A DNA stretch of 64,000 nt, taken from positions 136,372-200,371 of the forward strand of contig VMGC01000002.1 of assembly GCA_007376385.1 (NCBI GenBank), written 5' to 3'. Under the pieces are notes generated by a model. That model had not been told where the DNA came from and made no database searches. It saw nothing but the letters and a program-made list of their open reading frames with translations. Below are positions 23,009-62,018 of the stretch, piece after piece (positions within the stretch are counted from its first letter, which is position 1; each line of letters starts with the position of its first letter). The stretch is from Parcubacteria group bacterium Gr01-1014_8 (lineage in GTDB: Bacteria; Patescibacteriota; Minisyncoccia; Phycocordibacterales; UBA2100). The position numbers and the translations under genes were made by a program.

Positions 23009-23045
23009 CCCCAGTACCACAAGCCCTTCGGGCTTGGCTACGGGG
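23009..23045 (+). ncRNA. Conserved 37-nt leader hairpin motif (CCCCAGUACCACAAGCCCUUCGGGCUUGGCUACGGGG) in the pyrB 5' region; a paralogous copy lies in the uvrA leader
   Basis: 7-bp stem CAAGCCC/GGGCUUG with a UUCG tetraloop; compensatory C:G to U:A change in the copy at 53093. Confidence 0.5.
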
Positions 23046-23104
23046 CGAGGTTCATTGCATGAATATACTTGCGCGGGCGTGCAGTCCGTGGAGAAAATAA
23101 TGTT

Positions 23105-24016
23105 ATGCAACATCTGATCGAAACCCAGCAGTTCGATAGAGAAGCTCTTAGCAAATTGTTTGCGCTTGCGACCACTCTTGAGGGGAAGCGCGAAGAATCA
23201 CTCAAAGGCAAGATACTTGCCTCTCTTTTTTACGCACCGTCCACTCGAACGCGGCTTTCATTCGAATCAGCGATGATGCGGCTCGGAGGCAATGTTCTTT
23301 CGATGGAAAATGCAAGCGAATCATCGTCGGCAACAAAAGGCGAGACAATCGAAGACACGATACGCATCGTGGATGATTATGCCGACATTATCGTCCTCAG
23401 ACACACGGAAGTCGGGACTGCGGCGAAGGCGGCAGCTGTCTCGGAAGTTCCCATTATCAATGCAGGAGATGGCATTGGACAACACCCGACGCAAGCGTTT
23501 CTCGATCTGTATACAATAGAGCGCGAAATAGGGCGCACAGACGACTTCCACATTGCATTTGTGGGTAATCTTGCGTATTACCGGACCGCGCGTTCGCTTG
23601 CGTATCTTTTGGGAAAATACAATAAAGTAAAAATGACGTTTGTTTCTGCGCCGGAGCTCCGGATGAAAGATGATGTCAAGGATTATTTGAAGGAAAAAAA
23701 TGTGCATTTTGAAGAAACGGAAGACTTGGAAAGCACGATGAAAGTAGCAGATGTGGTGTATCAAACGCGGGTAGCGGAAGAATGGATACCGAACGAGGAG
23801 GATTACAAAAAACTTCGCGACAAATACGTCATCACGCGCCCAATGACCGACGTAATGAAAGAGGGGGCCATCCTCATTCATCCTCTGCCCCGTGCCGGAG
23901 AAATAGCACCTGAAGTCGACGATTCGCCTCACGCTGTCTACTTCAAACAAGCGGGGTATGGTGTGCTTGTGCGCATGGCGCTATTGAAGCTCTTAGCCAA
24001 TGGCGAGAAGGTGTAA
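23105..24016 (+). CDS. pyrB: Aspartate carbamoyltransferase catalytic subunit
   Basis: STRTRLSFE, HPTQ, HPLPR motifs; the alternative start at 23069 has a GAGG 8 nt upstream. Confidence 0.85.
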   Translation: MQHLIETQQFDREALSKLFALATTLEGKREESLKGKILASLFYAPSTRTRLSFESAMMRLGGNVLSMENASESSSATKGETIEDTIRIVDDYADIIVLRHTEVGTAAKAAAVSEVPIINAGDGIGQHPTQAFLDLYTIEREIGRTDDFHIAFVGNLAYYRTARSLAYLLGKYNKVKMTFVSAPELRMKDDVKDYLKEKNVHFEETEDLESTMKVADVVYQTRVAEEWIPNEEDYKKLRDKYVITRPMTDVMKEGAILIHPLPRAGEIAPEVDDSPHAVYFKQAGYGVLVRMALLKLLANGEKV

Positions 24017-26004: not shown

Positions 26005-26772
26005 CTAGAAGACAAAGAATAGAAAGATCAGCCCGAGTGCGATGCGATAGATACCGAACGAGATGAATGAGTGACTCTGCACGAAACGAAGGAGCCACAT
26101 GATACTGGCGGCTGCAACAACAAACGACAGAACGAATCCGATGGAGAGAGACATTGCTTGGTCGCTCGAGAATGTAGAATAATTTTTCAGCAGGTCGAGG
26201 CCCGTTGCGGCAAGCATCGTAGGGACCGCAAGCAAGAATGAGAATTCGACGATGGTTTTCCGCTTAAGTCCCAGCGCGAGTCCTCCGATGATAGTCGCAC
26301 CTGAGCGAGAAATGCCCGGGATCATTGCGATAGATTGAAACAGGCCTATGAGAACTGACTGTGTGTAGGAAATTGCAGAAACGGCGCCTGTCGCGCTATC
26401 AGTTTCATGGTGGAAGTATTCAAACGCAATGAGCGCAATACCGCCGAGAAGCAACGTCCACACAACTAACTGTTCGCTGCCCAAGAGATACGTTTTTATT
26501 GTGGAATACAGAAGGAGCCCAATAACTGCAGTCGGAATGAACGCGACAACAAGTCGTTTTAGTATCTCGACATCAAAAAATGACTTCCAATACAATGCGA
26601 TAACTGCGGCAATTGCTCCCGACTGAATGATTATTTCGAAACTTTTTAGAAATTCACTGTCAGGAAGGCCAAGAAGCGAGCTTGCCAGTATCAAGTGTCC
26701 GGTAGATGAAATTGGCAAGAACTCAGTCAGCCCCTCGACGACAGAGAGAATGACCGCATCAAATACGTTCAT
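26005..26772 (-). CDS. uppP: Undecaprenyl-diphosphatase (BacA/UppP)
   Basis: VVEGLTEFLPISSTGHL and PGISRSGATI motifs. Confidence 0.85.
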   Translation of the reverse strand: MNVFDAVILSVVEGLTEFLPISSTGHLILASSLLGLPDSEFLKSFEIIIQSGAIAAVIALYWKSFFDVEILKRLVVAFIPTAVIGLLLYSTIKTYLLGSEQLVVWTLLLGGIALIAFEYFHHETDSATGAVSAISYTQSVLIGLFQSIAMIPGISRSGATIIGGLALGLKRKTIVEFSFLLAVPTMLAATGLDLLKNYSTFSSDQAMSLSIGFVLSFVVAAASIMWLLRFVQSHSFISFGIYRIALGLIFLFFVF

Positions 26773-26788
26773 GGTAGTGATTCTATCA

Positions 26789-27820
26789 CTACCGCGCTCG
26801 CGGGATGCCTCCAGTGTCAACAGACTGCCCGTCAGTGGATAGAGCAGGCTCTGATACCGATGGTTCGCTCGCCGGCGTTCCGCCGGTTCCTTCTGCGCTG
26901 GTCGTCGTTGCTTCGACTATCGAAGGAGTACCCACGGTAGAATTTGTGGATCGGTTTGCTTTTGGTGCAGCCTTTGAGGGCGCACTTGGCACTAGAGGCT
27001 CATTTATTTCAGGTAATTGCTCTGTCTCCTCCATCACACGGGATGGATCCATGGGCTCTTCCTCTGGGAGAGCAGTCTGGATGCCGAGCATCAGACCAGC
27101 ACCGACGAGACCGGCAAGAATGTGCATATATGTGCCTCCGTTGCTCCGAACTGACGCGAGCGCGTGGGGCAAGAGGTCATGCAAGACAACAGACATAAAT
27201 CCTCCGGCGGCTATACCAGAAAATAGTGCGACGATCCAAGTCACTGATGACAGTGTGCTTGCAAGGAAAAAGCCGATGAGAATGGTGGAGGAAACGAGAA
27301 AACTCCGGGTCAGGGCTCCTTTATTGGAATATCCAGCCCCGCGTAGCACAAAGTACTCTGAGACCTCCTGCACCGTCTCATGGAGAACGACGCCGAGCGT
27401 TGCTGCAAGGCCGATGTACCAATTCGTCTCAAAAGCACCCACAAGCAGAATACCGTCCCCAATGTTATGCAGAGCGTCGCTAAAGAGCACGCTACGACCC
27501 TCTATGGGAGTGTGAGTGTGACTATTGTCAACGTCGTGGTGGTGGTGCTTTGTTGGAAAAATATAGTGAATTCCTTCCATAAGCGTTGCACCGATAAGTA
27601 CCGATATGACAGCGACCACCCAGCCGCCTGCGCGTACGGCCTCCGATGCAAGGTCAAATGCGACAAGAACAAACACGCCAGCAGAAAAGGTTGCCAAATA
27701 GGTCAGATATCGTTGCATCCACTGTCCCAGTTTTCCTGCGGAAAAGATGACCCCAATAAGAGATATCAGCATGACAAGAAGCGATGCGAGAAAAGCAGCG
27801 CTCGCAGCTGAAAAGTCCAT
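26789..27820 (-). CDS. ZIP-family divalent metal transporter with an approximately 90-aa Ser/Thr/Pro/Ala-rich C-terminal tail
   Basis: ZIP helices with the HNIGDG...GVVLHE pattern and a His-rich loop (HHHHDVDNSHTH); TACACT lies 10 nt upstream of the ATG. Confidence 0.8.
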   Translation of the reverse strand: MDFSAASAAFLASLLVMLISLIGVIFSAGKLGQWMQRYLTYLATFSAGVFVLVAFDLASEAVRAGGWVVAVISVLIGATLMEGIHYIFPTKHHHHDVDNSHTHTPIEGRSVLFSDALHNIGDGILLVGAFETNWYIGLAATLGVVLHETVQEVSEYFVLRGAGYSNKGALTRSFLVSSTILIGFFLASTLSSVTWIVALFSGIAAGGFMSVVLHDLLPHALASVRSNGGTYMHILAGLVGAGLMLGIQTALPEEEPMDPSRVMEETEQLPEINEPLVPSAPSKAAPKANRSTNSTVGTPSIVEATTTSAEGTGGTPASEPSVSEPALSTDGQSVDTGGIPRAR

Positions 27821-27832
27821 AATGGGTGTGAG

Positions 27833-27939
27833 TGTACCCCATGAGATAAGGACCCGCTATAGGCTATTCACAGGAAGCTACTTTTTGAAAGAAGAATTAC
27901 TCTAGCGAACGCCACCCGGTCTATCTCACGGGGTGTACC
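27833..27939. promoter_or_regulatory. Inverted pair of the TATCTCAYGGGGT(A/G)TAC motif (RC copy at 27833-27847, direct copy at 27923-27939) plus the direct repeat GGCTATTCACAG(G)AAG (27871-27889 and 27961-27977); the left copy doubles as the -10 region of the ZIP gene
   Basis: Read directly; the same motif pair is found at 52979-53085 and 60663-60768. Confidence 0.5.
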
Positions 27940-28090
27940 CCAGAGAGTAAAGACTCGCTACCGGCTATTCACAGAAGATATGCTGACAACAAAGTATGCA
28001 CATCATGCGGACCGTTTGCCTCTATCTACTATTGACACAGGGCCGGGTATGTATCCGAGTATTTTCCTTAAAACTTGACGGAACAAGTGA

Positions 28091-28128
28091 AATGTCCGAT
28101 AGGAATGTCCATGAGGATGTCTGATGGG
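28091..28128. repeat. Three tandem 13-bp units (AATGTCCGATAGG / AATGTCCATGAGG / ATGTCTGATGGG) in a GACAG/TTGACAG-rich 520-bp intergenic region
   Basis: Read directly. Confidence 0.6.
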
Positions 28129-28346
28129 ACAGGTTGATGATCAGAGCTGCCTTAGTAAGGGACAGACCGACAGAATGGACTGGATATAGGACGTCATGTA
28201 TGCCGGAATTGACAGTCAGTAAAATTGTGTTGTTTCGGACATTTTATCGTCAACTTTCGTTGACAGGGATTGTACCGCGCGTACTGTTACGGACAGCGCT
28301 CTTTTAATTTACGCTATTACTAAAGATTAATTATAAATACGAGCAT

Positions 28347-29606
28347 ATGACGTTGTTACGTTTGGCACGTGTGGGAGGTGTTGCGGCTTTTGCTGTTCTC
28401 TTGTTCACACTCGTTTCGTTTGTGGGAAACCAGCGTCTTGCTTACGCAGATGAGGTGCCCGTTTCGGGCTCTGACATTGTGTGCGACACGTATCGTCAAC
28501 TGCAGGAACAGGGATTGCCGATCCCTCCAGGACTCGATGTGAGCGGTTGTGAAGGAGGTGGGGGAGGCGGCGGTGGTGGCGAACCGCCACTACCAACGGT
28601 TACAGAGTGCATAGACGGTATTGATAACGACGGAGATGGACGTACCGATTTTCTTCCGATATACGGCGACCCCGATTGTGATAACTTCTCTGATGATAGC
28701 GAGGCGGCGAGCGGAGGAGGCGGCGGTGGCGGTTCTACTCCAGCATGTGCCGATGGCATTGATAACGACGGCGATGGGCTCGTAGATAGTGTTGACCCGG
28801 GCTGCTCAGACACTTCCGATACTGACGAGGCCGATCCTACGGGGGGCGGCGTAGGAGGTGGTGGAGGTGGCGGAGGCGGAGGCCCCGCAGCGGCGTGCGA
28901 GGACAGCATAGACAATGACCTCGATGGTCTTAAAGACATGCAAGACCCAGGGTGTGAAAATGCTTCTGACAACGACGAAACCAACGGTTCTGGTGGAGGA
29001 GGAGGCGGCGGGGGAGGTGGCGAGGCAGCGACGACAACGGCACCAACTCCAGAAATTCTCGGCGCATCAACGCCAGCACAGGAACTTTCGTGCGACTCCT
29101 ACCTGACGGCATTCATTCGCTTCGGCGGAAAGAATGATGCAGACCAGGTTATGCGCCTCCAGAAAGTACTCAAAGATTACGAGAAGGCGGATGTGAATGA
29201 AAATGGTACCTACGATGCTGCAACTCTCAAGGCAGTACATGCATTCCAAACAAAGTATGCCGATGAAATTCTTACACCATGGGGTATCAAGAGCTCGACA
29301 GGCTATGTGTATCTCACGACGCGAAAGAAAGTGAATGAAATTCGGTGCGAGAATAAGAAGACATTTCCGCTTTCGGAAGAAGAACAGAAGAAAGTCGAGG
29401 AAACACGGGTTTCTGCGGCAGTCAGGGACATCGGCACAGACGCATCTCCCGCAAAACCAGCGGAGCCAGCAAAACCTGCAGTAGTAAAAGCTAAAGATGT
29501 AACGGACAGGACCGCCGATTCATCGTCAAAAGACGAGACAGTGCAGGTGAGCGGATTGAAGAGGGTGTGGGATTTCCTCGGCAGAATGTTCAACAGAGCG
29601 CGCTAA
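28347..29606 (+). CDS. Secreted protein with four C-x-DGIDNDGDG-x-D...DPGC Ca/metal-binding repeats (MopE-like) separated by poly-Gly linkers, plus a C-terminal peptidoglycan-binding (PG_binding_1-like) domain
   Basis: Signal/TM N-terminus; repeats TECIDGIDNDGDGRTD, ACADGIDNDGDGLVD, ACEDSIDNDLDGLKD; G8-12 runs; C-terminus LQKVLKDY...TLKAVHAFQTKYADEILTPWGIKSSTGYVY. Confidence 0.7.
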   Translation: MTLLRLARVGGVAAFAVLLFTLVSFVGNQRLAYADEVPVSGSDIVCDTYRQLQEQGLPIPPGLDVSGCEGGGGGGGGGEPPLPTVTECIDGIDNDGDGRTDFLPIYGDPDCDNFSDDSEAASGGGGGGGSTPACADGIDNDGDGLVDSVDPGCSDTSDTDEADPTGGGVGGGGGGGGGGPAAACEDSIDNDLDGLKDMQDPGCENASDNDETNGSGGGGGGGGGGEAATTTAPTPEILGASTPAQELSCDSYLTAFIRFGGKNDADQVMRLQKVLKDYEKADVNENGTYDAATLKAVHAFQTKYADEILTPWGIKSSTGYVYLTTRKKVNEIRCENKKTFPLSEEEQKKVEETRVSAAVRDIGTDASPAKPAEPAKPAVVKAKDVTDRTADSSSKDETVQVSGLKRVWDFLGRMFNRAR

Positions 29607-37524: not shown

Positions 37525-37695
37525 ACCACTCCTTCGGGGTTGGGTGAAAGTCCCAATCGGCGGTATAGCCCGCGAGTTCTTAGGGACACGATTTGGTGAG
37601 ATTCCAAAGCCGACCGTACAGTCGGGATGAAAGAAGGAAGCGAGGCACCCTTGTTGGATGCTTGCGTGGTAACCCCGATGGATCGGGGTTTTTTA
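37525..37695 (+). ncRNA. FMN riboswitch (RFN element) with a terminator expression platform (AACCCCGATGGATCGGGGTTTTTT at 37671-37694)
   Basis: GGGTGAAAGTCCCAATCGGCGGTATAGCCCGCGAG...GATTTGGTGAGATTCCAAAGCCGAC...AGTCGGGATGAAAGAAGG matches conserved FMN aptamer blocks; upstream of the rib operon. Confidence 0.85.
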
Positions 37696-37700
37696 TTTAT

Positions 37701-38288
37701 ATGTTTACAGGAATTATCACACATACCGGGACTATCTCTCGTACATCTCCATCAAAGATTGCGATTCGTGCAGATCGCGATTTTGTGCAAAAGTTGGGTT
37801 ACGGCACCAGCGTTAGTGTGGGCGGAGTATGTCTCACCGTTATCTCAAAAAATAGCGATTCGTTTTCGGCGGACATTATGCCGGAAACCGCACGGCGTAC
37901 TACCTTGGGAAGTCTTCATCGCGGTGACTTGGTAAATTTAGAGCATCCGGCAACCCCCTTGTCGTTCCTTTCGGGTCACATAGTGCAAGGTCATATCGAT
38001 GGTATAGGGACATTACGGCAGATCCGTGCGCACAAGATGGGTTGGATCGTGTCGATCGCCTCTCCGGCAGCTCTCCTGCGCTACATCGTCGCGAAGGGAT
38101 CGATAGCGGTAAATGGCATTTCACTTACGGTCATCGGAAGGGGCCGCTCATACTTCACGGTAGGTATAATCCCTCACACATGGAAAACCACGACGTTCCA
38201 TGAACTCGCGCAGGGGAGCAGTGTCAACATTGAAGTGGATGTCCTCGCAAAGTATGTCGAGACATTTGTTCGGGATCGCCGCATATGA
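37701..38288 (+). CDS. ribE: Riboflavin synthase (alpha subunit)
   Basis: MFTGIITHTG N-terminus and internal duplication typical of riboflavin synthase; the track ORF starts upstream, inside the riboswitch. Confidence 0.85.
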   Translation: MFTGIITHTGTISRTSPSKIAIRADRDFVQKLGYGTSVSVGGVCLTVISKNSDSFSADIMPETARRTTLGSLHRGDLVNLEHPATPLSFLSGHIVQGHIDGIGTLRQIRAHKMGWIVSIASPAALLRYIVAKGSIAVNGISLTVIGRGRSYFTVGIIPHTWKTTTFHELAQGSSVNIEVDVLAKYVETFVRDRRI

Positions 38289-38728
38289 AAAAGATCGGCG
38301 ATATACGGATCGGCATCATCGGAAGCTCTTTCCGAGAGAATATCACTGCAGAACTTGAAAAACGTTGCGTGAAAACACTTCGAGTACGAGGGATATCAAA
38401 AGAACACATTCACCTTGTACGTGTTCCTGGTGCCTTCGAGATACCGCTTGTTGCAAAAAAAATGGCAATGCAGAGAACATACGACGCGCTCATAACATTT
38501 GGTGCGATCCTTAAAGGAAAAACGTACCACTTCGAACAAATAGCGAATGAGTGTGCGCGCGGCTGTGCCGAGGTGTCGCGTGCGTACGATATTCCTATTA
38601 TCTTCGAGGTGCTCGCGGTCTACGATCTGAGGGATGCGCTCGAACGCGCAACACGACCACATGAAAACAAAGGCGTCGAAGCGGCTGAATCTGCTTTAGC
38701 CATGATCAAGCTCATGTCGTCGCTATGA
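38285..38728 (+). CDS. ribH: 6,7-dimethyl-8-ribityllumazine synthase
   Basis: VPGAFEIP motif; approximately 147 aa. Confidence 0.9.
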   Translation: MKKIGDIRIGIIGSSFRENITAELEKRCVKTLRVRGISKEHIHLVRVPGAFEIPLVAKKMAMQRTYDALITFGAILKGKTYHFEQIANECARGCAEVSRAYDIPIIFEVLAVYDLRDALERATRPHENKGVEAAESALAMIKLMSSL

Positions 38729-52392: not shown

Positions 52393-52584
52393 CTACTCCC
52401 GGTCAAAGACCCACACGTACAGTACAAACCAGCCGATGATGGTCCATGCGATGGCAAGATTGGTAAATATGACGCCGCCAGCGTTCGGATGGCGCCGTAT
52501 CAAAGCCAGTATTCCGGGGAAAAAATACACGTATGTAGCCATAGCCACGTAGAGATAAACCATGAAATGCAAAAAAAGCAACAT
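52393..52584 (-). CDS. Superinfection-immunity-like small membrane protein (Imm family), paralog 1
   Basis: FFPGILALIRRHPNAGGVIFTNLAIAWTIIGWFVLYVWVF pattern. Confidence 0.6.
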   Translation of the reverse strand: MLLFLHFMVYLYVAMATYVYFFPGILALIRRHPNAGGVIFTNLAIAWTIIGWFVLYVWVFDRE

Positions 52585-52709
52585 GTTAACGAGTGCCCTG
52601 TTCCACGTAGGTCAATGAGGGCAAACGAACGTGTTACTGATCTGTAAGCGGATTCTACCAGTCCACCCGGGCAAAGGCAATTTTTTCGGTTGCCCATGAA
52701 AAAAATCGG

Positions 52710-52931
52710 CTAATTAGTACTTTGTCTGTCAAATACCCACGCGAACAAGACAAACCATCCAATGATGGTCCAGCCGATGGCGATGTTCGTAAAGAAAATA
52801 CCGCCGGGACTAGAATGGCGCAGAATGACAGCCAATATTGTGGGGAAGAAATACACGAACAACCCTCCCGCAACGTATGCGTATATCATGAGCAATTGTA
52901 ACCACAAAGTCGAAGGTATCAAATAGACCAC
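52710..52931 (-). CDS. Superinfection-immunity-like small membrane protein (Imm family), paralog 2 (GTG start)
   Basis: FFPTILAVILRHSSPGGIFFTNIAIGWTIIGWFVLFAWVF; approximately 60% identical to paralog 1. Confidence 0.6.
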   Translation of the reverse strand: MVYLIPSTLWLQLLMIYAYVAGGLFVYFFPTILAVILRHSSPGGIFFTNIAIGWTIIGWFVLFAWVFDRQSTN

Positions 52932-52978: not shown

Positions 52979-53085
52979 GTATACCCCGTGAGATAAAAAG
53001 GTCTCAAAATTATGCGGCAAGCGCACATGTACTCAAAATTCCTTTTTTTGCCTATAGTCACGGGCTATCTCATGGGGTATACTCG
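52979..53085. promoter_or_regulatory. Inverted pair of the TATCTCAYGGGGTATAC motif (RC copy at 52979-52995, direct copy at 53066-53085, which includes the TATACT -10) between the divergent Imm genes and uvrA
   Basis: Read directly; same architecture as at 27833-27939 and 60663-60768. Confidence 0.55.
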
Positions 53086-53092
53086 TCCGTGT

Positions 53093-53129
53093 CCCCGGTA
53101 CCACAAGTCCTTCGGACTTGACTACGGGG
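53093..53129 (+). ncRNA. Second copy of the 37-nt leader hairpin motif (CCCCGGUACCACAAGUCCUUCGGACUUGACUACGGGG) in the uvrA 5' UTR, followed by a second hairpin (CCCCTCG...CGAGGGG)
   Basis: Paralogous to 23009-23045 with a compensatory C:G to U:A change in the stem. Confidence 0.5.
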
Positions 53130-53173
53130 CAGGTAACCCCTCGGACAAGACGAGGGGCGAGGCTATTTGCATC

Positions 53174-59367: not shown

Positions 59368-60433
59368 ACTTTTTTCTATTTAACTCGTCGATGAATTCGT
59401 CAAAAATCCATGCTGTGTCCGTAGGTCCGGGGGACGCTTCTGGATGAAATTGAACCGAACGCCATGGCTTTGTCTTGTGTCTGATGCCTTCATTGCTGCC
59501 ATCGTTAGCATTGGTAAACCATTCTTCCCAATCTTTCGGCAGTGTCTTTCCGTCAACCGCAAAGCCATGGTTTTGCGACGTGATGTAGCATTTTCCAGGA
59601 TCCGTTACATCGAGTGCAGGTTGATTGTGGGACCTATGTCCGTACTTGAGCTTGTAGGTTTTTGCTCCCGCAGCGAGCGCCAACAACTGATTGCCAAGAC
59701 ACACGCCCAAGATAGTTTTTTTTGCGTTCATTGCTTTCTTAATGTGCTCGATCGTTGGCGCACACATTGTCGGGTCGCCGGGACCATTGGATAGAACAAC
59801 CGCATGGTATTTTTCCTTCGTAAAATCGTAATCCCATGGCACGCGAATGACGGTTGTTTCCTTGCGAGTGAGCGAGCGGACAATATTTTCCTTCATGCCG
59901 CAATCAACCGCGATTATCCGTATAGGCCCTTTTCCATACGTACGTTTCCTGTTCACACTGACGCGTGCAACCAAGTTTTTCTCGTTCGGGTCGAGAAATT
60001 TCCTCGGTTTGTCGTTTTCCGATAATGCGCCGAGCATCACGCCATGTTCGCGAAGTTTTTTTGTCAGCGCCCGTGTATCAACGCCGGAGATGGCAGGAAT
60101 TCCAGATTTTTTCAACCACGAACCGAGAGATTGAACGGCTTTAGCGTGCGAATACTTTTCGCAGTACTCGGAAACGATAAGACCTGCGATGTGAATTTTC
60201 GACGATTCAAAGCACTCTGGACTGGGAACGCCGTAGTTGCCGACAAGCGGGTATGTACAGACAAGTATCTGTCCGGCGTATGAAGGGTCGGTGAGACTCT
60301 CTACGTAGCCGACCATTCCGGTATTGAAAACTACCTCTCCAAATTGACCTCCAGACGGTGTTTTTGCGCCAAAGCTCGTGCCCTCAATGACTGTGCCATC
60401 TTTTAAGAAAAGCTTCATACCGTGATATGCCAT
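59360..60433 (-). CDS. carA: Carbamoyl-phosphate synthase small subunit (glutamine amidotransferase)
   Basis: GVCLGNQ class-I GATase triad motif; overlaps the carB start. Confidence 0.9.
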   Translation of the reverse strand: MAYHGMKLFLKDGTVIEGTSFGAKTPSGGQFGEVVFNTGMVGYVESLTDPSYAGQILVCTYPLVGNYGVPSPECFESSKIHIAGLIVSEYCEKYSHAKAVQSLGSWLKKSGIPAISGVDTRALTKKLREHGVMLGALSENDKPRKFLDPNEKNLVARVSVNRKRTYGKGPIRIIAVDCGMKENIVRSLTRKETTVIRVPWDYDFTKEKYHAVVLSNGPGDPTMCAPTIEHIKKAMNAKKTILGVCLGNQLLALAAGAKTYKLKYGHRSHNQPALDVTDPGKCYITSQNHGFAVDGKTLPKDWEEWFTNANDGSNEGIRHKTKPWRSVQFHPEASPGPTDTAWIFDEFIDELNRKKYE

Positions 60434-60662
60434 AGCTCGAAAGAGAGAAGGCGATCAGAAAAAAGCCCTCTTGGGGAGGGCAGAAAATCAGTCATTTTCA
60501 GGGGGATAGGACCCGCCTTCGCCAAAGGCTTCGACGAGGCGAAGTAAAAAAATACGCCCGAGCGGGCGCTTTCCGAATTCCGGACCTTAGGAGCCATTAA
60601 AAGTGCATTGTATCTGAATTTTTACGGCAGTCAAATCAGCTCGCGGTGGATATCCAGTTTCT

Positions 60663-60768
60663 GTATACCACATGAGATAAATAATTCGCGCCGTAAATCT
60701 GTCAAAATTCATCGCAAAATCGCGTGCATTTCGAAATTGTAATGTCTTTATCTCACGGGGTATACTCG
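60663..60768. promoter_or_regulatory. Inverted pair of the TATCTCAYG(G/T)GGTATAC motif between divergent carA and uvrC (RC copy at 60663-60679; direct copy at 60749-60768 with TATACT 7 nt before the uvrC ATG)
   Basis: Read directly. Confidence 0.55.
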
Positions 60769-60773
60769 CCTTC

Positions 60774-62018
60774 ATGACGAAAGAAGAGCTAAAAAAAATA
60801 AACTTGCCGGATAGTCCCGGGGTATACATGTTTCGGAGGAGCAACAATCATATCCTGTATATAGGAAAGGCGGCGTCACTTCGTGACAGAGTGCGCAGTT
60901 ATTTTGCTTCGGACCTAGCAGAGTCCCGTTCGTCGGCAATCGCTGGAATGGTATCTGATGCGGTGACGGTAACGTGGGAATCGGTGGACACAGTTCTTGA
61001 GGCGCTTATTTTGGAGGCTAACCTCATAAAGAAATATGAGCCTCAATTCAACATAGAACAGAAAGATAATAAAAGCTTCAACTATCTCGTTATTACGAAA
61101 GAGGCGTTCCCGCGGGTCGCTGTTGTTCGCGGACGGGAATTATTTCTTACATGGAACGAAAAAGACATAAAGCACTGTTTCGGACCGTACCCGCACGGAG
61201 GTGCGCTACAGGAAGCCGTAAAGTTGGTACGAAGAATATTTCCCTTCAGAGACAACAAGTGTGTCCCAGCTCCTGTCCAGAAAAAGAAAGGGAAGCCGCC
61301 TAAGCCGTGTTTTAATCGCCAAATAGGTCTCTGTCCTGGAGTATGTACAGGCGAAATGAGTGAAGCAGAGTACAAGTATGTCATCCGAAACATTGTTGAA
61401 CTTTTCTCCGGCGGGATGCGCTCTTTAAAGAGGCGGCTTGAAAAAGAGATGAAGGATGCGTCACGAGCAGAACGTTTTGAAAAAGCGACTGCACTTCACC
61501 GGCAAGTCTCAGCGCTTACTCATATTAGAGACGTTTCGCTTATAAAAGATGAGCACAGGGTCTCGACAGGAGGCCAGTTCCGCATCGAAGCCTATGACGT
61601 CGCACATACCTCAGGTGACGAGACGGTCGGGGTCATGACCGTCGTTGAAGGAGGAGAAATTTACAAAGCAGCGTATCGCATGTTCAAAGTGCGGGAGGCA
61701 AAAAATGACGATACTAAGGCGCTGTCGGAAATCTTAATGAGAAGGCTCGCCCATCCGGAGTGGCAGTATCCGAAACTCATCGTTATCGATGGGGGAAAGG
61801 GACAGCTGAATGCCGCATCTCGAGTTCTCAAAAAAGCAGGTGTATCGATTCCGCTCGTGGCCGTCACGAAAGACGAATTTCATCGTCCCGAAAAAGTGAT
61901 AGGCGACGAGCGCATGGCGCGTGCGTACGAAAAAGAAATTTTGCTGGCGAACAGCGAAGCGCATCGTTTTGCGATACGTTGGCACAGAAAACGTAGACAA
62001 AAGGGCATGGTAGAGTAA
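60774..62018 (+). CDS. uvrC: Excinuclease ABC subunit C, short form (GIY-YIG + UVR + RNase-H-like endonuclease domains; no C-terminal HhH2)
   Basis: GIY-YIG (GVYMF...ILYIGKA), UVR domain (RFEKATALHRQVSAL), endonuclease block IDGGKGQLNAA; only 414 aa. Confidence 0.85.
   Translation: MTKEELKKINLPDSPGVYMFRRSNNHILYIGKAASLRDRVRSYFASDLAESRSSAIAGMVSDAVTVTWESVDTVLEALILEANLIKKYEPQFNIEQKDNKSFNYLVITKEAFPRVAVVRGRELFLTWNEKDIKHCFGPYPHGGALQEAVKLVRRIFPFRDNKCVPAPVQKKKGKPPKPCFNRQIGLCPGVCTGEMSEAEYKYVIRNIVELFSGGMRSLKRRLEKEMKDASRAERFEKATALHRQVSALTHIRDVSLIKDEHRVSTGGQFRIEAYDVAHTSGDETVGVMTVVEGGEIYKAAYRMFKVREAKNDDTKALSEILMRRLAHPEWQYPKLIVIDGGKGQLNAASRVLKKAGVSIPLVAVTKDEFHRPEKVIGDERMARAYEKEILLANSEAHRFAIRWHRKRRQKGMVE

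What the first reader, a model, noticed from the sequence alone, without database searches (positions are those of the whole stretch)
27833..27977. Third copy of the inverted motif pair plus a direct repeat upstream of the ZIP metal transporter
RC motif (GTACCCCATGAGATA) and direct motif (TATCTCACGGGGTGTAC) are 75 bp apart. Each is followed by a GGCTATTCACAG(G)AAG direct repeat: a composite A-B...A'-B' structure. The left copy supplies the TACACT -10 of the ZIP gene, again leaderless-like. The B repeat could be a metal-responsive (Zur/Fur-family?) operator superimposed on the generic promoter cassette.
Basis: seen in the sequence. Interest (0 to 1): 0.5.

Follow-up and report, generated by a model that had tools for sequence, protein, structure and literature searches.

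The report
Tiny promoter-carrying repeat element upstream of ZIP
The "inverted motif pair plus B repeat" upstream of the ZIP transporter is most likely about 1.4 tandem copies of a ~97-bp mobile-looking element with inverted-repeat ends, found across Parcubacteria, that sits inside promoter -10 boxes and rebuilds them; it is not a metal-responsive operator.

Summary

**B repeat.** It occurs only at this locus. It is part of a 42-nt direct repeat with a 101-nt period. It is absent upstream of six ZIP orthologues. A Zur/Fur operator is not supported.

**The motif.** The "motif" is a 12-bp terminal inverted repeat (CCCCRTGAGATA ... TATCTCAYGGGG) fused to a duplicated host TATA.
- In 116 related loci, mostly Kaiser-, Nomura- and Campbellbacteria MAGs, the gene-side copy reads TATACT, with a start codon 6-8 nt after that hexamer. 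This is a leaderless promoter in front of unrelated genes.
- The far copy usually reads TATACC, and its outer flank is enriched in TGn-TATA, the orphaned half of an extended -10 box.
- The spacers between the ends fall into three length classes but differ in sequence.
- At uvrC, a close relative has the empty site (CTGTATACT + 7 nt + ATG). The window has about 97 extra nt bounded by the repeated GTATAC.
- One MAG carries the same 73-nt interior at three loci.

**Best reading.** This is a Correia-like miniature element that targets -10 boxes, and the ZIP locus holds a decaying tandem array of it. What mobilises it, what keeps the ends perfect, and what sets the lengths are all unknown.

The parts
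26789..27820 (-). ZIP-family metal transporter gene (343 aa). It is followed by uppP/bacA (ORF 26005-26820 as listed; the called gene is shorter).
   Evidence: Pfam Zip, E = 1.1e-15, and BacA, E = 1.7e-71. The protein is 100% identical to a protein of the MAG 'Parcubacteria group bacterium Gr01-1014_8'.
27831..27836 (-). -10 hexamer TACACT of the ZIP promoter, 10 nt before the ATG (a near-leaderless transcript). Its first four bases (TACA) are the duplicated target.
   Evidence: Read from the sequence. The same register is found in orthologues L119 and L120. Across 116 related loci, start codons peak 7-9 nt after the motif end. No transcription start site has been measured.
27837..27848 (-). 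Gene-proximal terminal inverted repeat of element copy 1 (minus strand TATCTCATGGGG).
   Evidence: Positions 1-12 are near-invariant in all related copies.
27849..27921 (.). 73-nt interior of element copy 1 (long length class).
   Evidence: The length falls in the 67-77 class. It shows no similarity to the other two window interiors, nor to the ZIP orthologue upstream regions of L119 and L120.
27922..27933 (+). Distal terminal inverted repeat of element copy 1 (TATCTCACGGGG).
27934..27937 (.). TGTA core shared by the two tandem copies. It is a direct repeat of TGTA at 27833-27836, i.e. a duplication that looks like a target-site duplication.
   Evidence: Read from the sequence. It is analogous to the TATA/GTATAC that bounds the uvrC indel and to the shared core in the tandem arrays of L059, L111, L017 and L100.
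27938..28034 (.). Degenerate second tandem copy. Its parts are the end CCCCAGAGAGTA (27938-27949), an interior carrying B' (27963-27977), and a possible relic far end TATCTACTATTG (28023-28034, 7 of 12 matches, in exact 101-nt register).
   Evidence: The 42-nt direct repeat is 79% identical. The unit-versus-unit alignment shows the start and the TCTATCT register conserved but the middle diverged. The relic far end is tentative.
52979..53083 (.). Second pair in the window. The far end is 52979-52995 (TATACC). The interior is 70 nt. The gene-side end is 53066-53082, giving TATACT, followed by a ~90-nt structured leader and then uvrA.
   Evidence: The left outer flank reads TGGTATACC, i.e. TGn-TATA. 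The leftward Imm_superinfect gene has its own TTGATA-16-TACAAT promoter.
60663..60766 (.). Third pair in the window. The far end is 60663-60679 (TATACA). The interior is 69 nt. The gene-side end is 60749-60765, giving TATACT, followed by 7 nt and then the uvrC ATG at 60774.
   Evidence: It is a filled site compared with the empty site in syntenic locus L131. carA has its own promoter and an attenuator-like leader.

Best explanation
The region holds a miniature element with terminal inverted repeats, resembling a Correia element or MITE.

**Anatomy of the element.**
- The ends are 12 bp: CCCCRTGAGATA ... TATCTCAYGGGG.
- The total length is about 30-39, 57-63 or 91-101 bp.
- It lies inside the TATA of a -10 box, with that TATA (or GTATAC) repeated on both sides.
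- The gene-side junction reads GGGG-TATA-CT and rebuilds a working -10 hexamer 6-10 nt before the start codon, so the gene is still transcribed as a (near-)leaderless mRNA.
- The far junction keeps the orphaned upstream half of the old promoter (TGn-TATA-CCCC). It lacks the final T of a -10 box, so it does not fire.

**At the ZIP locus.**
- There is one intact 97-bp copy (27837-27933) and a decaying tandem second copy (27938-28034).
- ZIP expression from TACACT therefore depends on an element-host hybrid promoter, not on a metal operator within these coordinates.

**Shown here.**
- The anatomy, the geometry, and the distribution among genomes.
- One filled-versus-empty site.
- One genome with several copies that share an interior.

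**Inferred.**
- Actual transcription starts.
- The direction of the indel (insertion rather than deletion).
- Any protein that binds the ends.
For: 1. **The motif is non-random and lineage-specific.** It has 6 copies in the window against 0.05 expected. More than 116 genomic stretches carry exact matches. About 100 of these come from Patescibacteria-labelled MAGs, mostly Kaiser-, Nomura- and Campbellbacteria and Paceibacterota. Only 5 chance-like single hits occur in viral contigs.
2. **Promoter geometry.** Start codons of ORFs of at least 40 aa peak 7-9 nt after the 17-mer (57 of 140). Position 18 is T in 65 of the 77 copies (in pairs) that are followed by an adjacent ORF.
3. **The downstream genes are unrelated.** They include rpoD, dnaE, uvrC, recG, pheS, eno, prfA, ppa, secDF and type IV secretion genes. 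By clustering, 124 of 147 clusters are singletons. This is not a regulon.
4. **The pairs are asymmetric.** 56 of 73 active copies have an inverted partner. In the partner, positions 1-16 are conserved, position 17 is relaxed, and position 18 is C in 35 of 56 and T in only 7 of 56.
5. **The partner's outer flank looks like half a promoter.** On the promoter strand it reads TGn-TATA in 21 of 64 cases (33%), against 6% at all TATA sites. TGC is the commonest triplet, matching the genome's ordinary TGCTATAAT promoters.
6. **Filled versus empty site at uvrC.** L131 (UvrC 80% identical, same carA-uvrC-ddl synteny) reads TTTCTGTATAC-TCCGACGG-ATG. The window reads TTTCTGTATAC[CACATGAGATA-69 nt-TATCTCACGGGGTATAC]TCGCCTTC-ATG. 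The other close relatives, L130 and L132, also lack it, while the more distant L011 has a short-class copy at the same TGTATAC site. Parsimony therefore favours gain.
7. **A multi-copy family with a shared interior.** Six units on three contigs of one MAG (L017, L059, L111) have closely similar 73-nt interiors, upstream of three different genes and arranged in tandem arrays.
8. **All-or-none conservation.** The window has 6 sites at 0-1 mismatch and none at 2-3.
9. **The ZIP locus has the same tandem architecture as L059**.
10. **There is a known precedent.** Neisseria Correia elements duplicate a TA target, come in three length classes, and form a promoter from an in-element -35 plus a partial -10 completed by native sequence, for example upstream of uvrB (PMC2649163).
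Against: - Only one clean filled/empty comparison was obtained. Its polarity is inferred by parsimony, and deletion between the short direct repeats would give the same picture.
- The three copies in the window genome share no interior sequence. That is unlike a young MITE family.
- The ends are perfect while the interiors are randomised, and interior length is quantised (82 of 90 pairs fall in 6-15, 33-39 or 67-77 nt). Lengths are also kept between orthologues whose interiors have diverged (L010/L089, L001/L071). These points indicate selection on the ends and on the spacing, which a purely selfish element does not predict.
- No autonomous copy carrying a transposase was seen in the 116 loci.
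- The extent of the target duplication is ambiguous (TATA or GTATAC) because the target is palindromic.
- No transcription start site or expression data exist for these organisms.
Confidence: 0.58

Rival explanations
1. A fixed regulatory module that is not mobile. A conserved Parcubacteria DNA-binding factor recognises TATCTCAYGGGGTATA. This could be a sigma-associated adaptor or activator replacing the -35 contact, or a global repressor. The inverted upstream copy would be an auxiliary site used for cooperative binding or looping. This is compatible with an ancient mobile origin followed by domestication.
For: - The element is in fixed register with the -10 hexamer and there is no conserved -35.
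- Partner positions 1-16 are conserved although the partner is not a promoter.
- Spacer length is quantised while spacer sequence is free.
- Length is retained between orthologues with diverged interiors.
- The ends are near-perfect everywhere.
- T/T at position 8 is almost forbidden within a pair, so the two copies are not independent.
- The motif replaces the usual TGn of this genome's extended -10 boxes.
Against: - It does not explain the indel at uvrC bounded by the repeated GTATAC.
- It does not explain the TGn-TATA relic on the partner's outer flank.
- It does not explain identical interiors at three loci of one MAG, or the tandem arrays.
- The set of downstream genes is not conserved between genomes.
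- The three centre-to-centre distances (about 27, 52 and 89 bp) are not in one helical phase.
- No candidate factor was identified.
Confidence: 0.25
2. Bidirectional promoter cassettes: each copy of a pair drives one of two divergent genes.
For: - The copies face outwards.
- In a few loci both sides have an adjacent ORF (for example L001 and L088).
Against: - Only 6 of 86 pairs in the three length classes have a leaderless ORF on both sides.
- Partners lack the final T of the -10 box (T in 7 of 56).
- In the window, the leftward genes carA and the Imm_superinfect ORF have their own TTGACT/TTGATA-16-TACAAT promoters downstream of the partner.
- Some partners run straight into terminators (L058, L073).
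Confidence: 0.05
3. The B repeat (GGCTATTCACAG(G)AAG) is a metal-responsive Zur/Fur-family operator controlling ZIP.
For: - It lies upstream of a ZIP-family transporter gene.
- It is present twice.
Against: - It is a direct repeat, not a palindrome, and is not AT-rich.
- It is unique to this locus in the window and has one stray match (L070) in the other loci fetched.
- It is absent upstream of six ZIP orthologues, including the 76%-identical one that keeps the promoter.
- It lies 25-40 nt and 126-141 nt upstream of the -10 box, inside two units of a tandem duplication.
- No Fur-family gene was found among the 30 window ORFs scanned.
Confidence: 0.03
4. The inverted pair acts as an RNA or single-strand hairpin, for example a terminator, a processing site or an attenuator.
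For: The two arms can form a 17-bp stem. The fold of 27832-27949 has z = -2.8 on the plus strand and -3.2 on the minus strand.
Against: - None of 95 deviating arm positions is compensated in the other arm.
- A-C combinations at position 8 are as common as pairing ones.
- The interiors are not self-complementary (mean z about 0).
- Rfam finds nothing in 27700-28400, even at E = 1.
- The pair lies upstream of the inferred transcription starts.
Confidence: 0.03

Closest known systems
Correia repeat-enclosed elements (CREE) of Neisseria, a type of MITE
   Same: - Both are short non-coding elements with terminal inverted repeats.
- Both duplicate a short T/A target.
- Both come in discrete length classes (69-73, 104-108 and 153-157 bp in Neisseria).
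- Both lie mostly 5' of genes.
- In both, the element end plus native sequence makes a sigma-70 promoter. In Neisseria this is the 'Black promoter', where a partial -10 in the element is completed by host bases, for example upstream of uvrB.
- In both there are tandem-duplication variants and presence/absence differences between strains (PMC2649163).
   Different: - Here the ends are 12 bp rather than about 26 bp, and the elements are as short as about 30 bp.
- The target appears to be the TATA of an existing -10 box, so the host supplies the whole hexamer and the element supplies no -35.
- The interiors are not conserved between copies in most genomes.
- The same ends are shared across many Parcubacteria lineages rather than within one genus.
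- No IHF or RNase III features were detected.
REPINs (paired REP sequences mobilised by RAYT transposases)
   Same: Inverted doublets of a conserved short sequence, separated by spacers of discrete lengths that are less conserved than the repeats, and present in many extragenic copies. This comparison rests on general knowledge and was not tested here.
   Different: - REPs are themselves imperfect palindromes, are species-specific, and mostly lie 3' of genes.
- Here each arm is not self-complementary, the arms show no compensatory change, and the copies sit exactly on -10 boxes.
PafBC-dependent (RecA-independent) promoters of Actinobacteria, which act by 'sigma adaptation'
   Same: A conserved block at a fixed distance upstream of a TAnnnT -10 box, no -35, frequent leaderless transcripts, and uvrA among the targets. 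This comparison rests on general knowledge.
   Different: - The sequence and the spacing are different (a block at -26 with an 8-nt gap, against a block abutting the -10 box here).
- The downstream genes here are not a DNA-damage set.
- The PafBC motif has no inverted partner, no target duplication and no indel polymorphism.
Extended -10 (TGnTATAAT) promoters driving leaderless mRNAs
   Same: The ordinary promoters in this window are of this type. The element-bearing promoters keep the -10 hexamer and the 6-10 nt distance to the start codon.
   Different: The TGn is displaced to the far side of the element and replaced by GGGG preceded by TATCTCAY.
Fur/Zur boxes
   Same: Only the location, upstream of a metal transporter gene.
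   Different: There is no AT-rich inverted repeat, no conservation in orthologues, and no recurrence elsewhere.

Membership tests
Fur/Zur-family operator | AT-rich inverted repeat (7-1-7 or 9-1-9 type palindrome) | tested here: not met
   B is a direct repeat, GGCTATTCACAG(G)AAG. The only inverted repeats found in 27600-28400 are the element ends and AAATGTCCGA/TCGGACATTT.
Fur/Zur-family operator | Conserved upstream of orthologous target genes | tested here: not met
   No B-like sequence with 2 or fewer mismatches lies within 520 nt upstream of six ZIP orthologues (L119-L124).
Fur/Zur-family operator | Recurs at other promoters of the genome (a regulon) | tested here: not met
   There are only the two local copies in 64 kb. 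With 2 mismatches the count is at chance level. One stray match (L070) occurs in the other fetched loci; the two in L117 are the same genome. The rest of the genome was not available.
Fur/Zur-family operator | Cognate Fur-family regulator encoded in the genome | tested here: inconclusive
   None was found among 30 window ORFs scanned against Pfam. Only 64 kb of the genome was seen.
Sigma-70-type -10 promoter of a leaderless mRNA | TAnnnT hexamer (A at position 2, T at position 6) 6-10 nt upstream of the start codon | tested here: met
   TACACT lies 10 nt before the ZIP ATG. The register is conserved in L119 and L120. Start codons peak 7-9 nt after the motif end in 140 instances.
Sigma-70-type -10 promoter of a leaderless mRNA | Mapped transcription start site | not testable with these tools
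   No transcript data were available.
MITE / Correia-like element | Terminal inverted repeats | tested here: met
   The 12-bp ends CCCCRTGAGATA / TATCTCAYGGGG are present. 56 of 73 active copies have the inverted partner.
MITE / Correia-like element | Target-site duplication flanking the element | tested here: met
   TATA/GTATAC occurs on both sides in the window but once in the empty site of L131. TGTA flanks the ZIP copy at 27833-27836 and 27934-27937. The exact extent (4 or 6 bp) is ambiguous because the target is palindromic.
MITE / Correia-like element | Presence/absence polymorphism between related genomes | tested here: met
   At uvrC the site is filled in the window and empty in L131, L130 and L132. 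Only one comparison has clean boundaries. L036/L113 and L004/L046 show partial deletions instead.
MITE / Correia-like element | Several copies per genome with related interiors | tested here: inconclusive
   Met in MAG CAYPGH01, where six units on three contigs have closely similar interiors. Partly met for the short class, where GCGGCTTTGCC recurs. Not met in the window genome, whose three interiors are unrelated.
MITE / Correia-like element | Cognate autonomous insertion sequence with the same ends | tested here: not met
   No far-apart end pair enclosing a transposase-like ORF was seen in the 116 loci. Whole genomes could not be searched.
Structured RNA / hairpin element | Compensatory changes that maintain arm pairing | tested here: not met
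   0 of 95 deviating positions are compensated. A-C combinations are common at position 8. There is no Rfam match.
DNA-damage regulon motif (LexA box or PafBC type) | Motif confined to DNA repair and damage genes across genomes | tested here: not met
   uvrA and uvrC carry it in the window. Across the loci, however, the downstream genes span translation, glycolysis, secretion, cell wall synthesis, transporters and rpoD.

The most novel reading that the evidence does not exclude
These elements may be more than decayed selfish DNA. They could be a class-wide, domesticated 'portable promoter' system in Parcubacteria. The perfectly conserved 16-bp ends would be bound by a conserved protein, either a transposase-derived factor or a sigma-associated one. 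The three permitted spacer lengths would reflect the geometry of a protein bridge between the two ends. Landing in -10 boxes would rewire scattered housekeeping genes (uvrA, uvrC, dnaE, rpoD, ZIP and others) under one shared control. That would be a new way of building a regulon in organisms that have very few transcription factors.
Probability: 0.25. Interest if true: 0.8.

Novelty: new variant of a known kind. Interest (0 to 1): 0.6.

Why it matters
Almost nothing is known about how transcription is organised in Parcubacteria and other candidate-phyla-radiation bacteria, which are uncultured, have tiny genomes and encode few regulators.

- A miniature element that lands precisely in -10 boxes, rebuilds a leaderless promoter and keeps identical ends across many lineages would be a compact, testable handle on promoter recognition in these organisms.
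- It would also be a possible source of portable promoters for genetic tools.
- It gives a clear case of mobile DNA reshaping promoters of essential genes.
- For annotation, it warns against reading such repeats upstream of transporters as metal operators.

Searches of the held open-access literature found no paper that describes the motif.

Tried and rejected
1. **DNA-damage regulon motif.** The other two pairs precede uvrA and uvrC, which suggested this. It was rejected because the downstream genes in 116 loci are functionally diverse and mostly unique. The Patescibacteria SOS paper (Sanchez-Osuna 2017) is not in the library.
2. **The organism's generic promoter.** Rejected. There are only 3 sites in 64 kb, and ordinary promoters here are of the TGCTATAAT type.
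3. **RNA hairpin.** Rejected by the lack of covariation and by Rfam.
4. **Phage-borne element.** Only 5 single, unpaired, chance-like hits were found in IMG/VR.
5. **A conserved -35 or other signal in the spacers.** None was found in any length class.
6. **Spacers as foldback sequences.** They are not self-complementary.
7. **The long class as a duplicated medium class (72 = 2 x 35 + 2).** Only 5 of 36 long interiors show half-versus-half similarity, so this remains unresolved.
8. **Orthologues through metagenome contigs.** The search gave a single distant hit without the motif. The exact-protein contig look-ups were the productive route.
9. **Resemblance of GGGGTATA to CsoR-type G-tract operators.** This surfaced in a text search. 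It was not pursued because the arrangement is inverted and the targets are not copper genes.
10. **Search for an autonomous copy.** None was found in the data at hand.
Full report
**1. What is in the sequence**

The window comes from a Parcubacteria MAG: the ZIP protein is 100% identical to one from 'Parcubacteria group bacterium Gr01-1014_8'.

The ZIP gene (26789-27820, minus strand; Pfam Zip) is followed by uppP. Upstream of it lie these features:
- the reverse copy GTGTACCCCATGAGATA at 27832-27848;
- the forward copy TATCTCACGGGGTGTAC at 27922-27938, with 73 nt in between;
- GGCTATTCACAG at 27862-27873 and at 27963-27974.

The 17-mer, allowing up to 3 mismatches, occurs six times in 64 kb against 0.05 expected. 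It always forms outward-facing pairs: 27832/27922, 52979/53066 (before uvrA) and 60663/60749 (before uvrC).

The B repeat is not an independent motif. It belongs to a single 42-nt direct repeat, 27832-27873 versus 27933-27974, 79% identical, with a 101-nt period. The second unit starts with a degenerate reverse copy that abuts the forward copy. Together they make an imperfect 28-bp palindrome at 27922-27949. Aligning the two 101-nt units shows that their starts are conserved, their middles have diverged, and TCTATCT recurs in exactly the same register at 28021-28027.

**2. The B repeat is not a metal operator**

- B is a direct repeat, is not AT-rich, and occurs only here in the window.
- I fetched the upstream regions of six ZIP orthologues.
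  - The closest one (L119, 76% identity) keeps the proximal motif in the same register: TATCTCCTGGGGTACACT + 10 nt + ATG.
  - L120 (71%) has a decayed copy, CACCTCATGGAGTACACT.
  - L121-L124 (63-67%) have only a plain TATACT/TACAGT hexamer 6-7 nt before the ATG.
  - None has B, and none has a recognisable partner.
- In the other loci fetched, B has a single stray match, in L070.
- No Fur-family gene was found among the 30 window ORFs scanned.

**3. The motif is widespread and sits on leaderless promoters of unrelated genes**

- About 100 come from Patescibacteria-labelled MAGs: Kaiser-, Nomura- and Campbellbacteria, Paceibacterota, and 'Saccharibacteria'-labelled TPA MAGs.
- The 'Saccharibacteria' labels look unreliable, because some of those loci are orthologous at the DNA level to Parcubacteria loci.
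- The rest are scattered single hits, at roughly the number expected by chance for a pattern of this length (my own estimate).
- Viral contigs gave 5 unpaired, chance-like hits.

In the related loci:
- The start codon of an ORF of at least 40 aa peaks 7-9 nt after the 17-mer (57 of 140). That places it 6-8 nt after the T of TATACT, which is the geometry of a leaderless mRNA.
- The downstream proteins are diverse. They include rpoD, dnaE (twice), a pol III clamp-loader subunit, uvrC, recG, RNase H and RNase HII, pheS, enolase, release factors, pyrophosphatase, secDF, secG, ddl, transporters and type IV secretion proteins.
- Of 147 sequence clusters, 124 are singletons.
- My first idea, a DNA-damage regulon prompted by uvrA and uvrC, is therefore rejected.
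- This is also not the organism's standard promoter. Ordinary promoters in the window look like TGCTATAAT or TGCTATACT, 6-9 nt before the start codon. The motif marks 3 sites in 64 kb, with none at 2-3 mismatches.

**4. The pair is asymmetric and its spacing is quantised**

- Of 73 'active' copies (exact 18-mer with T at position 18 and an adjacent ORF), 56 have an inverted partner upstream.
- The partner keeps positions 1-16 (TATCTCAYGGGGTATA). Position 17 is relaxed. Position 18 is C in 35 of 56 and T in only 7 of 56. The partner therefore lacks the essential last T of a -10 box.
- Only 6 of 86 pairs in the three length classes have a leaderless ORF on both sides.
- In the window, the leftward genes carA and an Imm_superinfect ORF have their own TTGACT/TTGATA-16-TACAAT promoters.
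- The gap between the two 17-mers falls into three classes: 6-15 nt (14 pairs), 33-39 nt (35 pairs) and 67-77 nt (33 pairs). That is 82 of 90 pairs. All three window pairs are in the long class (69, 70, 73).
- The spacers show no conserved position in the medium and long classes analysed (pooled) and are not self-complementary.
- The arms show no compensatory changes (0 of 95), which excludes a hairpin function. Combinations with T at position 8 in both arms are almost absent (1 observed against about 11 expected).

**5. The turning point: a filled and an empty site**

The carA-uvrC-ddl neighbourhood is syntenic in relatives.
- L131 (UvrC 80% identical) reads ...GGATATCTCATTTCTGTATACTCCGACGGATG.
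- The window reads ...GGATATCCAGTTTCTGTATAC[CACATGAGATA - 69 nt - TATCTCACGGGGTATAC]TCGCCTTCATG.
- The difference is a clean ~97-nt indel bounded by a direct repeat of the -10 core (TATA, or GTATAC).

So the '17-mer' is a 12-bp terminal inverted repeat (CCCCRTGAGATA ... TATCTCAYGGGG) plus a duplicated host TATA.

The other close relatives, L130 and L132, also lack the element. A more distant Kaiserbacteria locus (L011) has a short-class copy at the same TGTATAC site. Parsimony therefore favours gain in the window lineage, although deletion between the short repeats cannot be excluded.

This reading made a prediction that held. The partner's outer flank, read on the promoter strand, should be the upstream half of an ordinary extended -10 box.
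- It is TGn-TATA in 21 of 64 cases (33%), against 6% at all TATA sites.
- TGC is the commonest triplet, matching this genome's TGCTATAAT promoters.
- This explains the C and A enrichment at partner positions 18-19 and the relaxed position 17.

**6. Evidence for copying with the interior**

- In one MAG (CAYPGH01), six units on three different contigs share closely similar 73-nt interiors. They form tandem arrays whose units are joined by the 28-bp palindrome (end - GTATAC - end). They lie upstream of three different genes.
- The complete Kaiserbacteria chromosome CP066682.1 (locus L100) has a two-unit array of the medium class.
- The short-class interior GCGGCTTTGCC recurs at several loci and genomes.
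- The ZIP locus has the same architecture as L059:
  - an intact 97-bp copy at 27837-27933, flanked by TGTA at 27833-27836 and 27934-27937;
  - a decaying second copy at 27938-28034.
- B and B' are the interior segments next to the left end of each copy.

**7. What remains unexplained**

- The three window copies share no interior sequence.
- Orthologous pairs keep their length while their interiors diverge (L001/L071 35/35, L010/L089 35/35, L007/L054 75/70).
- The PPase orthologues L008 and L031 share the left flank but differ in class (34 versus 69).
- The ends are essentially perfect everywhere.
- These facts point to selection on the ends and on the spacing. The cause could be a bound protein, promoter function, or constraints on bringing the two ends together. 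This is why the 'fixed regulatory module / domesticated element' reading remains a serious rival or complement.
- No autonomous copy or mobilising enzyme was found in the data available.
- Other orthologue comparisons showed partial deletions of the distal end rather than clean empty sites (L036/L113, L004/L046). That fits the gene-side end being retained as the promoter while the far end decays. The same pattern appears in L119 and L120 at ZIP.

**8. Comparison with known systems**

- The closest analogue is the Neisseria Correia element. It has terminal inverted repeats, duplicates a TA target, comes in three length classes, lies mostly 5' of genes, and forms a promoter from a partial -10 in the element completed by native sequence, for example upstream of uvrB (PMC2649163).
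- The differences here are:
  - the ends are much shorter and so are the elements;
  - the apparent target is the TATA of an existing -10 box;
  - the element contributes no -35;
  - the interiors are not conserved in most genomes;
  - the same ends are shared across many lineages.
- REPINs, PafBC-type promoters and Fur/Zur boxes were considered and fail the defining tests listed in the membership table.
- Text searches of the held literature for the motif and for MITEs or promoters in Patescibacteria found nothing relevant. The library lacks most subscription journals.

**9. Verdict**

- The -10/leaderless and 'cassette' parts of the interpretation hold.
- The metal-operator part does not.
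- The most likely identity is a Correia-like miniature inverted-repeat element that occupies -10 boxes and rebuilds leaderless promoters. It is present at ZIP as about 1.4 tandem copies (confidence about 0.58).
- A non-exclusive possibility is that the ends have been domesticated as protein-binding sites (about 0.25).
- Transcription starts, the direction of the indel, the mobilising enzyme and the reason for the quantised spacing are inferred or unknown.

Noticed in passing
window 53093-53131 and 23009-23047: A conserved hairpin, CCCCRGTACCACAAGYCCTTCGGRCTTGRCTACGGGGC, lies in the 5' leader of uvrA and again upstream of the aspartate/ornithine carbamoyltransferase gene (23069-24016). The inner stems differ by compensatory changes (GTCC/GGAC versus GCCC/GGGC). 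The folds score z = -2.2 and -3.9. There are only two copies in the window, none in the 124 loci fetched by then, and no Rfam family. It may be an undescribed cis-regulatory RNA or a small repeat.
   Followed up: partly
window 28080-28300; L119 and L120 intergenic regions: A cluster of YGGACAK / MTGTCCR repeats lies between ZIP and the divergent secreted Gly-rich gene (28347). It includes the inverted repeat AAATGTCCGA/TCGGACATTT. The blocks CTGTCCGTAAGAGTA, CTGTCAAC and ACGGACATTCTATCGGACA are conserved in the orthologous intergenic regions. This is a better candidate for a real regulator-binding region than the B repeat.
   Followed up: partly
window 60434-60640 (minus strand): The carA leader has a TTGACT-16-TACAAT promoter (60634-60607). 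Two terminator-like hairpins (60569-60554 and 60481-60465) follow before the carA ATG at 60433. The layout looks like an attenuator, and parts of it are conserved in L130 and L131.
   Followed up: no
window, upstream of many genes (e.g. 12138, 18555, 44573, 46493, 62514): Ordinary promoters of this genome look like extended -10 boxes (TGCTATAAT, TGCTATACT, TGATAGAAT) 5-9 nt before the start codon, without a clear -35. This suggests that leaderless mRNAs are common.
   Followed up: partly
L001-L116 pairs: Position 8 of the inverted-repeat ends (C or T) is not independent between the two ends of a pair. The combinations proximal/partner are C/T 25, C/C 23, T/C 14 and T/T 1. This suggests either element subfamilies with intrinsically unequal ends or selection against two CATG ends.
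   Followed up: partly
L001-L116 pairs; window 52996-53065: The long-class spacers (about 72 nt) are about twice the medium class (about 35 nt) plus 2. Five of 36 long interiors, including the window's uvrA copy with CTCAAAATT twice, show significant similarity between their two halves. The long class may derive from two medium units that lost the central palindrome.
   Followed up: partly
window 26005-27820; L119, L120: ZIP is followed by the undecaprenyl-diphosphatase UppP/BacA in the window and in L119, but by a PAP2-family phosphatase in L120. The pairing of ZIP with a phosphatase gene recurs, but the phosphatase family differs.
   Followed up: no
window 52393-52931 (minus strand): Two tandem small membrane ORFs of the Imm_superinfect family (73 and 63 aa) lie between murB and uvrA.
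   Followed up: no
window 37526-37642: An FMN riboswitch (Rfam RF00050, 104 bits) lies upstream of a riboflavin-synthesis operon that includes a lumazine synthase gene at 38285-38728.
   Followed up: no
L007/L054, L001/L071 and other TPA MAG loci: MAGs deposited as 'uncultured Candidatus Saccharibacteria' (TPA_asm) carry loci that are orthologous at the nucleotide level to loci of Parcubacteria/Kaiserbacteria MAGs. Their taxonomic labels look unreliable, so the element's spread beyond Parcubacteria is unproven.
   Followed up: partly
window 60680-60748 versus L130: The interior of the window's uvrC element resembles the native uvrC upstream region of relative L130 (local score 30, p about 0.004 by shuffling, uncorrected). 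It resembles that region more than the window's own flank does. The origin of the interiors is unclear.
   Followed up: partly
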